From NCBI GenBank assembly GCA_000165345.1, contig CM000433.1, positions 864,001 through 928,000 of the forward strand: a stretch of DNA of 64,000 nucleotides. Direction: 5' to 3'. Shown here piece after piece: positions 11,279 to 63,820 of this stretch. The position numbers were made by a program, and so were the translations under genes. The notes below the pieces were generated by a model that was given only the letters and a program-made list of their open reading frames with translations, ran no database searches and was not told the DNA's origin. How positions within the stretch are numbered: the first letter of the stretch is position 1; each line of letters opens with the position of its first letter.

Positions 11279-12712
11279 AACTTAATATATTCTTTCAGAA
11301 AAAAAAAAAGAACAGATTTCTTGGTTTCCTTACTTTATAATCTACAATTCAAACTACAATCTAACAATTTTTCAAATTTATTACCTAATAGTTAAATATT
11401 ATACTATTACTATAAAAAATGATATATATTTAAAATTCTTTAATGGTACCAATCGTTTTCGAGGAGTTGAATTTGAAGAACATGATAAATATTATTTTTT
11501 CAATGTTGATTTTTTTTTTTCTCAAAGAAGAAAAACTATTCTCTTTTAGATGAAGAAAATTCGGACTTAATAAATTTTTTAAAAAAATTTGGTTATTAAT
11601 TTTAATTCTAATATAAATGTATTTTTATGACGTGTAAATTTTTAATGCATGCACTGGCAGATTAAATTTAAAAAAAAAATGCATTTTAGCATGCAAAAAA
11701 AAAAAAATTCACATTTATATTGGGAAATTTTGATCAAAAATTTAAATTAATATTAACTTATTTATTTATTTATTTATTATAAAAAATACTTGGAAATTTT
11801 TTATTTCAACAAGAAAATAAAATATTCAAATTATTACTCAAATATTAATTAATTAAACTACGTGTAATTCCCGCCCAAATTTGTCCCTCACCCCACTTGT
11901 TAAAATTGATTATTATTATAAGTAAATAAACAGCAATATAAATAATTAAAGAGGAGTGATTTGTTAAGACTCATTAAGTTTTTGAGATTATTGACAGGGA
12001 ATATTTGTAATGGTTAATGAGGACCTGTATATTTTGGATGAGAGTAATTAAATTTAAATAATATTAAATATTAAAAGTATAATTCAAATAAATTAAAGTG
12101 ATTTTTTAAAGAAATTAATAAGAAAAAAAAAGTTCAAGAAAATAAATATTAATTTTGATAATAATAAAAAAACATTAATAATACAAGGATTTAATTAATT
12201 CATTATTAAATAATTAAATAAAGTTTATAGAATATATATATAAATATATAAATTGTAAACGTAAAAAAAAAAAAAAAAAAAAAAACAGAAAATTGTTAAA
12301 TGAGCAAATTAAACATAAATTGCACACAAAAATAAATTCAAGAGAAAAAAAGTGTTCAAAATTGAGTGATTAAAAATTTTAAATATAAAGATTAATATCA
12401 TTAATACTCGGATGAAAGTAGGTATATAATACATTAATATGTAATTATAATCCCAACGAGAAATAATAATATATTTAAATTTATACAATTTGCAAAAGTA
12501 TGCAGTGATACAAATTTGTGCATTGGAAATTAGGAATAATAATATATTTTCATTTTTTACGGATGAAAATAAGAGTAATTAAATTAATATTATTTAGCAA
12601 TATATGAATGGTTAATTAGATATATTACAAAAACAAAAAAAAAAAAGAAATATACAGGAATTATAAGTAGCAGCAGAAGTGTGGTATATTAAATAAGTAA
12701 ACCAAAGAAAAA

Positions 12713-14044
12713 ATGCCAAGAGAAGTCAGCATATACAAAAGTCCTATAAAGACTTTGAATCTTGCATTGCTATTTTGCTATGAAGTAGTATGTAAAATAA
12801 TTGTGGAATTGTTTACAAAATGGTATAAACACATTTTGATATTATTTGGAATTACTTTGACAATAATGGGATTAAGTAATTTAAATGAAAAATTAGGAGA
12901 GCTAATTCATAATTACATTTACGTTAATATTTTGAATGGAATTTGGTGGATTGGATTGGGGTTTTTGAGTTCAGTAGGACTTGGTTGCGGCATTCATACT
13001 GGATTATTGTTTTTATTTCCTCATGTTTATTCAATAATTACTACAGCTGAAAGATATAACACATTGAATTTTGACCCAAGGCAAAATATGTGGAGTAATT
13101 TATTGAACCCAGGAGATTTATTTATAGTAAATGATTTAGGTTCAGATGGATCATCAATCAGTCTATTTAACATATTATTAAAGATTCTCCCATATGCATT
13201 TTTATGGGGTTTTGGTACGGCTTTAGGAGAGTTACCCCCATATGCAGCAGCATATGCAGCTTCAAAATCTAGAAAAAATAATAGATTAAGAGAGTTAAAA
13301 AGGAGAAAAGAAAATGAAGAATTTGAAGTACAAAACTCTTCAAGTATTGAAAATATTGGGAATGAAGGTTTTGAAATTAATAAGGAGTTACTTCCTGATG
13401 ATGAAAGTACTGAAGATACAAATAATGACTCAAGTATTAAACATTACTTGATGAGTTTAATAAAGAAGTGTATAGTCACATTGATTAATAAGTTTGGTGG
13501 ATATGGAGTCTTTATTTTAAGTTGTTGGCCAAATTTAATGTTTGATTTATGTGGAATCATATGTGGCCATTATTTAATGAATTTTTGGACTTTCTTTATT
13601 CCACTAGTTCTTGGTAAAGGTATAATAAAGGTTTTCTTTCAGACTTTATTATTAATATTCTTATTTTCAAGTAAATTTGAAAATAAGCATGTTGATATTA
13701 TTCTTTGGTTTATTAAAAAATGGCCAATTTCTAAATTTTTTGATAAAGATGAAATTTACCTTAAAGAAACAATTCATAACGAGTTAATTTATATAAAAAA
13801 GACTTTAAGTAATATGAATGAGCAATCTGGAGATCCTATTTCATCATTGAATTCCAATAATATTAGTAAAATAAATAATAACAATTGGTGGGAAGTCATT
13901 ATAAGTAAAATCCAAATTACTTCCTTATTTTCATGGATTACTATTTTTGTTGTTGTTTTATTTGCAATCTCTATCATTAATGAGGCAGCAAAATATCAAG
14001 ATGAAGCCATCAGAAATAAGGAGAACAAAGTTAAAAAGGACTAA
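12713..14044 (+). CDS. VMP1: Vacuole membrane protein 1 (VMP1/TMEM49, DedA-superfamily ER scramblase-like)
   Basis: Multi-pass membrane protein. [23 protein letters not shown] matches VMP1 [58 protein letters not shown] matches VMP1 [36 protein letters not shown]. Confidence 0.85.
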   Translation: [443 protein letters not shown]

Positions 14045-62924: not shown

Positions 62925-63820
62925 TTCTCACTTCAGAATTGAAGTTTATTATGGCGAGTAAATAAAAAGGGAAAAAAAAAAGAACTTGGACCAACTCTTT
63001 CCTGCAAATTTAATAAACTTCTTGAATATCAATTTCAGTATTCAACTGTCCTTTTACTTAATAACTTTGGTAATAAACGAATGAGTAATATATAAATATT
63101 TTTATAAATTTTTTAAAATATTACTTATATTACTATAAAAGTTTCTTTTTCTTCAGGAAATTTAATTCATTAATTCAGAATTTTTCACATTTATTTGTAT
63201 TCACACAGGACTGAATAACTTTATCAATATATACCACTTTCTTCCGAAATATTATGTTACAATTTATATTATTTCAATTATTTTTTTTTTTTTTCTTAAA
63301 TTAATTAATTTTTAAAAAATATATTATTATTATTATTATTAGTATTATTATTATTATTCACTAATTATTTATCTTTACATAATTTTTTACACGTCATATA
63401 TTTTTTTTGTTTGCGTGTGGGGGGCTATACCGGTGTTTGCATGCTTGTCCACTTGAAATTATTTTACTCTATAAATAATTCAAAGTAAAAAATTAATAAA
63501 CTATTAGATTAAATAAAAAAAATTTAATTAGGAAATGAATAAATACACACAATAAATAAAGTAATTTGGAAATTTTTATTTTTTATCCTAGTTATTTTTC
63601 AGATTTCTTTTCCTGATTTTTCAAGCTTTAATTCGTATTTTTCTAAATTTTATCTAAATTTTATTCATCCTCACAAAGTGGCGCTCATTGGCGGCAACTT
63701 TATGAAATTTTATCTTAGAAATAGAAATAGCCAAGAATATGCAATCATAAGAATAACTTGATGTGATGATTAATCAAAATAAAACAGATCGATTTGTGTG
63801 TAGTGTCCAAAAAGAAAGCA

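What the first reader, a model, noticed from the sequence alone, without database searches (positions are those of the whole stretch)
11627..63399. The hybrid C/G-box TATGACGTGTAAA recurs in both orientations
The motif occurs at 11627..11639 as TATGACGTGTAAA. At 47634..47648 it is AAATGACGTGTGTAA. The reverse complement gives ATATGACGTGTAAAA at 63387..63399 and AATGACGTGTCAA at 23652..23660. Shorter TTACGTGT/ACACGTAA copies lie at 11857, 23608, 27388, 35794, 37940, 44553, 52642 and 52684. The core TGACGTGT is a classical bZIP-type hybrid site. Finding a 9-11-mer four times in 64 kb of AT-rich DNA is far beyond chance. The copy at 23652, together with TTACGTGT and TGCATGCA at 23608..23623, lies in a 160-bp gap between two convergent stop codons.
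Basis: seen in the sequence. Interest (0 to 1): 0.5.

Follow-up and report, generated by a model that had tools for sequence, protein, structure and literature searches.

The report
Conserved ACGT promoter motif in Cryptosporidium
A nine-base DNA word, AT(T/G)ACGTGT, occurs about 140 times more often than chance between the genes of this Cryptosporidium parvum chromosome segment, never inside them, and is kept at the same places in related species, so it is almost certainly a gene-control site that published motif lists for this parasite have not singled out.

Summary
The window is Cryptosporidium parvum chromosome 4. ACGTGT occurs 13 times against about 3 expected. Twelve copies lie in the 31% of the window that is non-coding. 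The sharp form AT[T/G]ACGTGT occurs 10 times in 19.9 kb of intergenic DNA against 0.07 expected, and 0 times in 44 kb of coding DNA. Across seven other species' orthologous loci plus C. parvum, TKACGTGT is 23 intergenic to 1 coding. Copies are kept at orthologous intergenic positions in chipmunk genotype I, C. ubiquitum, C. canis, C. felis and partly C. bovis, including one 3'-3' gap kept in five species. The flanks are unrelated, so it is not a dispersed repeat. Both orientations occur, so it acts on DNA rather than RNA. It sits in modules with known C. parvum promoter motifs (TGCATGCA, E2F, G-box) and with a second unlisted motif, ATACCGG. Best reading: a transcription-factor binding site. 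The bZIP assignment is plausible from the sequence alone and is untested; palindromic bZIP sites are absent and no published ApiAP2 specificity matches. The core TACGTG appears once in a 2013 supplementary table, filed under 'G-box-like'. This is a new member of a known kind, of moderate interest.

The parts
11627..11635 (+). ATGACGTGT copy in the divergent intergenic region between the 347-aa gene (-) and the 443-aa gene (+). TGCATGCA follows at 11646-11653.
   Evidence: The ACGTGT + TGCATGCA pairing is kept in chipmunk genotype I, and kept with flipped orientation in C. felis.
11857..11865 (+). Variant ACTACGTGT, followed by an E2F-like TTCCCGCC and the G-box complement CCCCAC.
   Evidence: TACGTGT + (C/G)CGCC is conserved in chipmunk genotype I and C. 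felis.
23606..23623 (+). ATTACGTGT-T-TGCATGCA composite, 35 bp after the AP-1 gamma adaptin stop codon, in the 162-bp convergent gap.
   Evidence: The same 15-mer, TTACGTGTTTGCATG, recurs at 44551.
23652..23660 (-). ATGACGTGT copy in the same convergent gap. It forms an inverted pair with the copy 43 bp upstream.
   Evidence: Conserved in chipmunk genotype I; C. canis has ATTACGTGT 25 bp after the adaptin stop.
27387..27395 (+). ATTACGTGT in the 235-bp divergent promoter between the DEAD/MZB helicase and the 418-aa gene. ATACCGGCAT (27403-27412), AATGACGTAAT (27420-27430) and GCGGGAAA follow.
   Evidence: An aligned copy is present in C. felis; chipmunk genotype I has ACCTGT instead.
35810..35818 (-). 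ATTACGTGT (overlapping GTGCAT) about 130 bp upstream of the EF-hand protein ORF, in a tandem intergenic region.
   Evidence: No orthologous locus was fetched for this site.
37942..37950 (-). ATTACGTGT in a divergent intergenic region. TGCATG lies 6 bp away on the GTGT side and TACCGG lies 40 bp away.
   Evidence: No orthologous locus was fetched for this site.
44550..44565 (+). ATTACGTGT-T-TGCATG composite at the 5' edge of a ~125-bp ultraconserved non-coding block (44550-44675), between the hydrolase gene (-) and RING-A (+).
   Evidence: The composite is identical in C. ubiquitum and C. canis; C. felis has a 1-bp deletion but retains ACGTGT.
47619..47670 (+). Module ATACCGGCAT - N7 - ATGACGTGT (47636-47644) - N18 - TGCATGCA (47663-47670), in the convergent gap between RING-A and the 578-aa gene, 55 bp from the latter's stop codon.
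   Evidence: ATGACGTGT is kept at the same position in chipmunk genotype I, C. ubiquitum and C. canis. C. bovis has an ACGTGT in the same gap.
52634..52661 (+). Module CCCGCC-AT-ACGTGT-AAA-ATACCGGTAT (E2F-like site + ACGTGT at 52643-52648 + palindromic ATACCGGTAT), 109 bp after the RING-B stop codon and 418 bp upstream of the next gene.
   Evidence: Conserved in chipmunk genotype I and C. ubiquitum. C. felis has ACGCGT at that place. C. bovis has GGCGCCACGTGT.
52684..52692 (-). ATTACGTGT, forming an inverted pair with the 52643 copy 41 bp away.
   Evidence: Conserved in chipmunk genotype I.
63389..63397 (-). ATGACGTGT 465 bp upstream of the 832-aa gene (-). CCCCAC, CCGGTA and CATGCA lie within 50 bp.
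11141..11146 (+). Bare ACGTGT (TTTCTACGTGT) inside the 347-aa coding sequence. It lacks the AT[T/G] flank and is probably not part of the element.
   Evidence: It is conserved in chipmunk genotype I only as part of coding sequence.

Best explanation
AT[T/G]ACGTGT is a selectively maintained binding site on double-stranded DNA for a sequence-specific nuclear factor of Cryptosporidium. It works as one component of short composite regulatory modules in the very short intergenic regions of this compact genome.

Shown:
- It is about 140-fold over-represented in intergenic DNA and absent from coding DNA.
- It is sharply defined, since one-mismatch variants are not enriched.
- It occurs in either orientation.
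- It is embedded in unrelated flanks.
- It is kept at orthologous intergenic positions across species whose intergenic DNA is otherwise largely unalignable.
- It clusters with the established C. parvum promoter motifs TGCATG(CA) (ApiAP2), GGCGGG/GGCGCC (E2F/DP) and GTGGGG (G-box), and with a further conserved palindrome, ATACCGG(Y)AT.
- TGCATG lies within 40 bp on the GTGT side in 7 of 12 copies. The spacing is fixed (ACGTGT-T-TGCATG) at two unrelated loci.

Inferred:
- The bound factor cooperates with a TGCATGCA-binding ApiAP2 to set transcription of the flanking genes, in both directions in divergent regions.
- In the three copies that lie in 3'-3' gaps, the same module either drives unannotated or antisense transcripts, or marks a nucleosome-free gene boundary.

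Identity of the factor is inferred only. A bZIP-type protein is my first guess, at about 35-40%. The reasons are the ACGT core, the ATTAC/ATGAC half-site, and the asymmetric TGACGTG[G/T] sites bound by XBP1/HAC1/ATF6/CREB3-class bZIPs (from my own knowledge). An ApiAP2 domain without a determined specificity is nearly as likely.
For: - Organism: C. parvum chromosome 4. The adaptin ORF translates exactly to a protein encoded on four annotated C. parvum chromosome assemblies, and the RING protein is 100% identical to C. parvum.
- Enrichment.
- Coding versus intergenic: 12 of 13 ACGTGT and 10 of 10 TKACGTGT are intergenic, while 69% of the window is coding. Across the C. parvum loci and seven other species, TKACGTGT is 23 intergenic to 1 coding.
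- Conservation at orthologous positions.
- Unbiased conservation ranking of 1004 six-mers over 15 orthologous intergenic regions: ACGTGT is conserved in 10 of 29 comparisons against 2.9 expected (p = 3e-4, rank 14). ATGACG, ATTACG, TACGTG and TGACGT are also in the top 25, alongside TGCATG, E2F and G-box words.
- Co-occurrence with TGCATG: 8 of 9 ACGTGT-bearing intergenic regions against 5 of 24 others, Fisher p = 7e-4.
- Flank identity equals background: 0.332 against 0.327.
- FIRE independently reported CACGTA/TACGTG upstream of four co-expression clusters. Two of these clusters (39, 42) also carry the TGCATGCA motif (Oberstaller 2013, Table S3).
Against: - Only 64 kb of C. parvum and about 200 kb of orthologous loci were examined. 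No genome-wide count was possible.
- There are no binding, chromatin-accessibility or start-site data for these positions. The sporozoite ATAC-seq preprint reports only E2F-type and poly-T motifs in open chromatin.
- Three of 12 copies lie between convergent stop codons, where no annotated promoter is expected.
- No lncRNA in the held part of the published lncRNA set overlaps the coding-sequence probes that flank those gaps.
- The element is missing from the C. xiaoi locus and nearly missing from the C. andersoni locus.
- For the bZIP idea specifically: palindromic ACGT sites are absent, the GTGT half is invariant while the other half varies, and the single non-CCAAT bZIP entry in the literature could not be identified or examined.
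Confidence: 0.72

Rival explanations
1. The site is bound by an ApiAP2 domain, not a bZIP. One version: it is one half of a bipartite site (ACGTGT + TGCATG) read by a multi-domain or dimeric ApiAP2, in the way tandem AP2 domains read bipartite motifs in Plasmodium.
For: - TGCATG lies on the GTGT side within 40 bp in 7 of 12 copies. The spacing ACGTGT-T-TGCATG is identical at 23609, at 44553 and at a second copy in C. ubiquitum.
- The motif is asymmetric and about 9 bp long, like AP2 sites.
- Four C. parvum ApiAP2 proteins gave no PBM motif, so unassigned specificities exist.
- ApiAP2 is the dominant transcription-factor family.
Against: - None of the published C. parvum AP2 specificities matches. 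These are TGCAT, GCACAC/GTGTGT, G-box, GCGTGCA and AAAA.
- The spacing to TGCATG varies from 0 to about 37 bp in other copies.
- Five copies have no TGCATG within 40 bp on the GTGT side.
- The ATTAC/ATGAC half resembles bZIP half-sites.
Confidence: 0.3
2. The element is mainly a gene-boundary device. A tightly bound general regulatory factor would keep a nucleosome-free gap and block read-through polymerase between closely packed genes, as Reb1, Rap1 and Cbf1 do in yeast. It would not be a stage-specific activator site.
For: - Three of 12 copies are in 3'-3' gaps only 162-390 bp long. The RING-A|578 copy is kept in five species.
- Tandem-region copies lie 109-250 bp after the upstream stop codon.
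- E2F motifs occur in only 1 of 11 convergent gaps, whereas TGCATG, ACGTGT and ATACCGG modules occur in several. This suggests a function not tied to 5' ends.
- ATACCGGT loosely resembles the yeast Reb1 site TTACCCGT (from my own knowledge).
Against: - Five copies are in divergent regions with no 3' end nearby.
- Most convergent gaps (9 of 11) have no copy.
- No termination data are available.
- FIRE linked TACGTG to particular co-expression clusters, which argues for regulated rather than constitutive use.
Confidence: 0.15
3. The recurrence is a composition or sampling artefact: a post-hoc pick among many k-mers in AT-rich DNA.
For: The window is small. CpG-containing words have noisy expectations.
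Against: - In the unbiased scan the word ranks with the known regulatory motifs.
- 0 of 1000 dinucleotide shuffles of the intergenic DNA reach even half the observed count: maximum 5 against 12 for ACGTGT, and maximum 2 against 10 for ATKACGTGT.
- Coding DNA shows no excess.
- Independent genomes keep the word at orthologous positions.
Confidence: 0.02
4. It acts in RNA, as a UTR element for stability, localisation or 3'-end formation, or it is a remnant of a dispersed repeat.
For: Several copies fall within probable 3' or 5' UTRs.
Against: - Orientation relative to the flanking genes is mixed, and inverted pairs occur at two loci.
- Divergent-region copies lie up to about 1 kb from a start codon.
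- Flank identity among copies equals random intergenic background.
- No Rfam family matches at the gathering threshold anywhere near the sites.
Confidence: 0.03

Closest known systems
C. parvum AP2_1 motif, TGCATGCA (ApiAP2 site; Bankier 2003 as cited, Oberstaller 2013/2014)
   Same: It is a short word, strongly over-represented and conserved in Cryptosporidium intergenic DNA. It is found upstream of genes and also at 3' ends, and it is physically adjacent to ACGTGT in this window.
   Different: The sequence is different. AP2_1 is palindromic and has PBM-proven ApiAP2 binders, whereas ATKACGTGT is asymmetric and has no known binder.
FIRE 6-mer CACGTA/TACGTG in Oberstaller et al. 2013, Table S3 (clusters 39, 42, 45, 83)
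   Same: It has the same core, it was found upstream of C. parvum genes, and it co-occurs with TGCATGCA in clusters 39 and 42.
   Different: It was filed under 'Motif 2, G-box-like (DTGTGGGG)' with a modest score (Z = 6, robustness 6/10). It was never described as a separate element. No flanks, conservation or 3'-gap occurrence were reported, and it is absent from the main motif table and from the 2025 review.
Plant ACGT-core hybrid boxes (C/G box TGACGTGT, A/G box TACGTG) bound by bZIP proteins (own knowledge: Izawa/Foster nomenclature)
   Different: In plants the palindromic G-box CACGTG and C-box GACGTC are also used. Here both occur zero times in 64 kb. No Cryptosporidium bZIP has been characterised.
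UPRE-type sites of XBP1, HAC1, ATF6 and CREB3-class bZIPs, (GA)TGACGTG(G/T) and TACGTG (own knowledge)
   Same: An asymmetric ACGT site with a TGAC half and a GTG(G/T) half. ATGACGTGT matches the XBP1 selection consensus.
   Different: Apicomplexans are generally considered to lack the IRE1-XBP1 and ATF6 branches (own knowledge, not tested here). The flanking genes show no secretory-pathway theme.
Yeast general regulatory factor sites (Reb1, Cbf1, Abf1) at promoters and terminators (own knowledge)
   Same: Short, high-specificity words in a compact genome, found at both 5' and 3' gene boundaries.
   Different: No evidence here for nucleosome exclusion or roadblock termination. The sequences differ.

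Membership tests
Transcription-factor binding site / cis-regulatory promoter element | Over-representation relative to local composition | tested here: met
   In intergenic DNA, ATKACGTGT is 10 observed against 0.07 expected and ACGTGT is 12 against 1.18. 0 of 1000 dinucleotide shuffles reach these counts. Also.
Transcription-factor binding site / cis-regulatory promoter element | Confined to non-coding DNA | tested here: met
   10 of 10 TKACGTGT copies in the window are intergenic. Across C. parvum and seven other species the ratio is 23 intergenic to 1 coding.
Transcription-factor binding site / cis-regulatory promoter element | Conservation at orthologous positions above the intergenic background | tested here: met
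   10 of 29 comparisons conserved against 2.9 expected, p = 3e-4, rank 14 of 1004 six-mers. Alignments are, with extra species.
Transcription-factor binding site / cis-regulatory promoter element | Orientation-independent occurrence and clustering with other factor sites | tested here: met
   7 copies on the plus strand and 5 on the minus strand. Co-occurrence with TGCATG has Fisher p = 7e-4 and with TACCGG p = 0.02.
Transcription-factor binding site / cis-regulatory promoter element | Occupancy by a protein in vivo and an effect on transcription | not testable with these tools
   No ChIP, footprint or reporter data are available. The sporozoite ATAC-seq preprint lists only E2F-type and poly-T motifs.
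bZIP ACGT-core element | ACGT core flanked by a TGAC or TTAC half-site | tested here: met
   10 of 12 intergenic copies read AT[T/G]ACGTGT.
bZIP ACGT-core element | Dyad symmetry, with palindromic relatives (TGACGTCA, TTACGTAA, CACGTG, GACGTC) also used | tested here: not met
   All four occur 0 times in the window. Only TGACGTAA occurs: once clearly intergenic and conserved, and once inside a doubtful gene model.
bZIP ACGT-core element | A bZIP protein encoded by the organism that binds the site | not tested
   The literature table lists 'bZIP: other, 1' for C. parvum without an identifier. Searches for its identity failed.
ApiAP2 binding site | Match to a PBM-determined C. parvum AP2 specificity | tested here: not met
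   The published specificities are TGCAT, GCACAC/GTGTGT, G-box, GCGTGCA and AAAA. None contains ACGTGT. Four ApiAP2 proteins remain unassigned, so membership is not excluded.
Published C. parvum upstream-motif catalogue (25 motifs, 11 families) | Listed as a distinct motif | tested here: not met
   - Absent from Table 1 of Oberstaller 2013 and from the 2025 review tables.
- Absent from Mullapudi 2007, Cohn 2010, Li 2021 and Xiao 2025.
- Only the 6-mer TACGTG appears, inside the Motif 2 sheet of Table S3.
- Motif 22 (HTKWYGAC) is not enriched in the window and is a different word.
- Bankier 2003 and Templeton 2004 could not be read.
Dispersed repeat / mobile-element remnant | Similarity extending beyond the core | tested here: not met
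   Mean flank identity is 0.332 against 0.327 for random intergenic sets.

The most novel reading that the evidence does not exclude
AT[T/G]ACGTGT, TGCATGCA and ATACCGG(Y)AT together form a previously unrecognised type of gene-boundary module in Cryptosporidium. It would be placed at promoters and also in 3'-3' gaps, and bound by a non-ApiAP2 factor. That factor could be the parasite's single conventional bZIP, retained in Cryptosporidium like E2F/DP, while bZIP is reported absent from the six Plasmodium species surveyed by ApicoTFdb. The module would organise bidirectional initiation or termination in the ultra-compact genome. That would make a bZIP-class factor a third major arm of Cryptosporidium transcription control beside E2F/DP and ApiAP2.
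Probability: 0.15. Interest if true: 0.7.

Novelty: new member of a known kind. Interest (0 to 1): 0.45.

Why it matters
Cryptosporidium is a leading cause of childhood diarrhoea, and its gene regulation is poorly understood. The recognised cis-elements are essentially E2F, TGCATGCA, G-box, GCACAC, GAGA and CAAT.

A sharply defined, conserved, intergenic-only 9-mer, and its equally conserved neighbour ATACCGG, would add one or two regulators to a very short list. It would also give a testable handle on how promoters and 3'-3' gaps are organised in a 9-Mb genome with about 500-bp intergenic spacers. It points to a factor outside the ApiAP2 family, or to an ApiAP2 whose specificity was missed.

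The element is easy to test with existing CRISPR and reporter tools and with the existing ATAC-seq, long-read and single-cell data sets.

Tried and rejected
- Chance or composition: rejected by whole-window and intergenic-only shuffles and by the unbiased k-mer ranking.
- Dispersed repeat: rejected, because flank identity equals background.
- Non-coding RNA genes at the sites: Rfam at gathering threshold found only a SNORD96-like snoRNA at 39210-39292, and there are no tRNAs. A permissive Rfam scan and folding of the ultraconserved block at 44550-44675 gave nothing.
- Antisense lncRNAs from the two convergent gaps: four 30-mer probes in both orientations found no match in the held part of the Li et al. 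2021 lncRNA FASTA, which holds about 324 of 396 sequences. This is inconclusive, not negative.
- Identity with published motif 22 (HTKWYGAC): that pattern is not enriched (37 observed against 44 expected) and mostly reads ATTTTGAC.
- Finding the C. parvum bZIP gene: literature and supplement searches gave no identifier. The protein-search tools cannot be aimed at one proteome, so this was not attempted.
- A functional theme among flanking genes: the Pfam annotations are heterogeneous (adaptin, DEAD/MZB helicase, PRMT, RING/4TM paralogues, EF-hand, RanBP1, hydrolase, DCP1) and show no theme.
- Bankier 2003 and Templeton 2004 are not held in the library, so an earlier mention there cannot be excluded.

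
Full report
**What the window is.** The long ORFs encode eukaryotic proteins: an AP-1 gamma adaptin, a DEAD-box helicase, a PRMT and RING-finger proteins. The adaptin is 98% identical to a Cryptosporidium hominis/parvum protein cluster, and its exact sequence is encoded on chromosome-scale C. parvum assemblies such as CP044418.1. The RING protein at 50342-52534 is 100% identical to C. parvum. The window is therefore C. parvum chromosome 4, at roughly CP044418.1 positions 837.8-901.8 kb in reverse orientation. 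It is 26% G+C, gene-dense, about 69% coding, and has intergenic spacers of a few hundred bases.

**Checking the observation.**
- TGACGTGT occurs four times against 0.26 expected.
- TTACGTGT occurs six times against 0.42 expected.
- The shared core ACGTGT occurs 13 times against 3.2 expected.

Nothing lies at 35794; the copy is at 35810. The 11857 and 52642 copies are CTACGTGT and ATACGTGT.

Ten of the 12 intergenic copies read AT[T/G]ACGTGT: six ATTACGTGT and four ATGACGTGT. Allowing one mismatch adds no excess (25 matches including the 10 exact ones, against 13 expected).

TACGTGT is 10th of 6253 seven-mers. Only homopolymer, microsatellite and codon-repeat words and the known Cryptosporidium motifs rank above it, together with one more unexpected word, ATACCGG. 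The known motifs are TGCATGC, GGCGGGC/TGGCGCC (E2F) and CCCCACA (G-box).

**Distribution.** I built gene models from the public annotations of the same locus and from ORFs.
- 12 of 13 ACGTGT copies and 10 of 10 TKACGTGT copies are intergenic.
- Dinucleotide shuffles of the intergenic DNA alone (19.9 kb, 21.9% G+C) give 1.18 ACGTGT and 0.07 ATKACGTGT, against 12 and 10 observed. None of 1000 shuffles reaches these counts.
- Coding DNA has 1 ACGTGT against 2.07 expected and 0 ATKACGTGT against 0.12 expected.

Of the 12 intergenic copies, five lie in divergent regions, three in tandem regions, three in convergent 3'-3' gaps and one at the window edge. The 162-bp convergent gap at 23575-23736 is real under the longer helicase model. 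That model includes a C-terminal MZB domain and is used in two of the four annotated C. parvum assemblies and in C. felis and C. xiaoi.

**Related genomes.** I fetched the orthologous loci around two anchor genes.
- Adaptin anchor: Cryptosporidium sp. chipmunk genotype I, C. canis, C. felis, C. xiaoi and C. andersoni.
- RING-B anchor: chipmunk genotype I, C. ubiquitum, C. felis, C. bovis and C. canis.

Pooled over the C. parvum loci and seven other species, TKACGTGT is 23 intergenic to 1 coding.

The copies are positionally conserved:
- The ATTACGTGT-T-TGCATGAATG composite at 44550 is identical in C. ubiquitum and C. canis. In C. felis it has a one-base deletion that still leaves ACGTGT. The neighbouring RING proteins are only 46% identical to C. 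felis.
- The ATGACGTGT in the RING-A|578 convergent gap is kept 55-71 bp from the stop codon in C. parvum, chipmunk genotype I, C. ubiquitum and C. canis. C. bovis has an ACGTGT in the same gap.
- CCCGCC-A(T/C)-ACGTGT-AAAATACCGG downstream of RING-B is kept in three species. A GGCGCC-ACGTGT version occurs in C. bovis.
- TACGTGT next to an E2F-like site at 11857 is kept in chipmunk genotype I and C. felis.
- The 27387 copy aligns to a copy in C. felis.

As an unbiased test I aligned 15 orthologous intergenic regions pairwise and scored every six-mer for exact conservation. Against backgrounds of 2.7-21.6%, ACGTGT is conserved in 10 of 29 comparisons, with 2.9 expected (p = 3e-4, rank 14 of 1004). 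ATGACG, ATTACG, TACGTG and TGACGT are also in the top 25. The company is telling: TGCATG, TGGCGG, GCGCGC, GTGGGG and the TACCGG/ATACCG/GGTATC family.

The C. xiaoi locus has no copy and the C. andersoni locus has one. The element may therefore be weaker or absent in those lineages, but the sample is small.

**Anatomy.**
- Flanks of the 12 copies are no more alike than random intergenic DNA (0.332 against 0.327 identity). This is not a repeat family.
- Orientation is mixed (seven plus, five minus) and is not consistent with respect to flanking genes. Two loci carry inverted pairs 41-43 bp apart. The element therefore acts on DNA, not RNA.
- It clusters with other motifs. Eight of nine ACGTGT-bearing intergenic regions also carry TGCATG, against 5 of 24 others (Fisher p = 7e-4). 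Five of nine carry TACCGG, against 3 of 24 (p = 0.02).
- TGCATG lies within 40 bp on the GTGT side in seven copies. The arrangement TTACGTGT-T-TGCATG is identical at two unrelated loci (23607 and 44551) and at a second copy in C. ubiquitum.
- E2F-like and G-box words adjoin other copies (11857, 52634, 63389).
- E2F words are almost confined to 5' regions, occurring in 1 of 11 convergent gaps. TGCATG occurs in 4 of 11.

**What it most likely is.** These are the standard signatures of a transcription-factor binding site embedded in composite regulatory modules.

For the 5' regions the simplest mechanism is cooperative action with a TGCATGCA-binding ApiAP2 and with E2F/DP.

For the three copies in 3'-3' gaps there are two readings. 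One is promoters of unannotated or antisense RNAs. Li et al. 2021 found that C. parvum antisense lncRNAs start at the 3' ends of sense genes and carry E2F and TGCATGCA motifs upstream. The other is a boundary or roadblock function. I found no listed lncRNA overlapping the coding-sequence probes beside those gaps, but only part of the supplement is held.

**Who binds it.**
- The left half, ATTAC/ATGAC, and the ACGT core are bZIP-like. A perfectly bZIP-like AATGACGTAAT at 27420-27430 is conserved in C. parvum, chipmunk genotype I, C. canis and C. xiaoi.
- From my own knowledge, asymmetric TGACGTG(G/T) and TACGTG sites are typical of XBP1, HAC1, ATF6 and CREB3-type bZIPs.
- Against a conventional bZIP: the palindromic relatives TGACGTCA, TTACGTAA, CACGTG and GACGTC all occur zero times, and the GTGT half is invariant while the other half varies.
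- The literature lists one non-CCAAT bZIP entry for C. parvum, but I could not identify it.
- None of the PBM-derived C. parvum ApiAP2 specificities matches, although four ApiAP2 proteins have no assigned motif.

I rate bZIP at about 35-40%, ApiAP2 at about 30%, and another factor class for the rest.

**Comparison with what is known.** The motif is absent from all of these:
- the main table of 25 C. parvum upstream motifs;
- the 2025 review's motif and ApiAP2 tables;
- Mullapudi 2007;
- Cohn 2010;
- the lncRNA study;
- the ATAC-seq preprint;
- the AP2-F papers.

There is one hidden precedent. Table S3 of Oberstaller 2013 lists the FIRE six-mer CACGTA/TACGTG for clusters 39, 42, 45 and 83 (Z = 6, robustness 6/10). 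It is filed under 'Motif 2, G-box-like' and never discussed. Clusters 39 and 42 also carry TGCATGCA, which matches the pairing seen here.

Bankier 2003 and Templeton 2004 could not be consulted.

**Verdict.** The functional-element reading is well supported within the limits of 64 kb plus orthologous loci. The bZIP label is a reasonable but untested lead.

It is a new member of a known kind, namely a candidate transcription-factor site in a genome already known to use such sites. Interest is moderate. The conserved presence in 3'-3' gaps and the equally conserved, unlisted partner motif ATACCGG(Y)AT raise it somewhat.

Noticed in passing
window 8093, 20387, 27403, 27459, 33741, 37982, 47619, 52652-52661, 63428 (also 16136-16145 inside a doubtful gene model): A second sharply over-represented word, the palindrome-like ATACCGG(Y)AT. 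TACCGG is 10 intergenic copies against 0.98 expected. It is the most conserved six-mer family after TGCATG in orthologous intergenic alignments. AATACCGGTATCTA is invariant in C. parvum, chipmunk genotype I, C. ubiquitum and C. felis. It often lies within 10-20 bp of ACGTGT and is absent from the published C. parvum motif lists and from the 2013 supplement.
   Followed up: partly
window 44550-44675: A ~125-bp non-coding block between the hydrolase and RING-A genes. It is nearly invariant in C. parvum, C. ubiquitum, C. canis and C. felis, and a 23-nt core (AACTCATGCATCGCGACAACGCG) is exact in C. bovis. This is far better conserved than the flanking proteins. It starts with ATTACGTGTTTGCATG and an E2F-like site. 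There is no Rfam match and no unusual RNA fold. It may be a very dense promoter, a 5' leader, or an unclassified RNA.
   Followed up: partly
window 27420-27430: AATGACGTAAT, a perfect CRE/PAR-type bZIP-like site in the helicase|418-aa divergent promoter. It is conserved in C. parvum, chipmunk genotype I, C. canis and C. xiaoi, and is flanked by two ATACCGG copies and GCGGGAAA. A similar TGACGTAA + ATACCGGTAT pair lies at 16114-16145.
   Followed up: partly
window 39210-39292 (+): A SNORD96-family C/D box snoRNA (68.6 bits, above the gathering threshold), starting inside the last bases of the 38419-39219 ORF and running just past its end.
   Followed up: no
all 11 convergent gaps of the window: E2F-type words occur in only 1 of 11 convergent gaps but in nearly every divergent region. 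TGCATG occurs in 4 of 11 convergent gaps, with five copies in the 230-bp gap at 56810-57039. This suggests that the two motif classes have different positional rules.
   Followed up: no
window 23609/23652 and 52643/52684; L013 7554/7594: ACGTGT copies form inverted pairs (plus then minus) 43, 41 and 40 bp apart at two unrelated loci, and in chipmunk genotype I at the second locus. This is too few cases to judge.
   Followed up: no
window 23737-24593: The helicase gene model differs between C. parvum assemblies. One model is 1013 aa and ends at window 24094. The other is 1108 aa with two extra 3' exons and an MZB domain, ending at 23737. The longer model matches C. felis and C. xiaoi.
   Followed up: partly
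window 45120-47303 and 50342-52534: Two paralogous genes for 4-transmembrane RING-finger proteins lie on the same strand, separated by one gene. Both paralogues are present in the C. ubiquitum, C. canis, C. felis, C. bovis and chipmunk genotype I loci.
   Followed up: no
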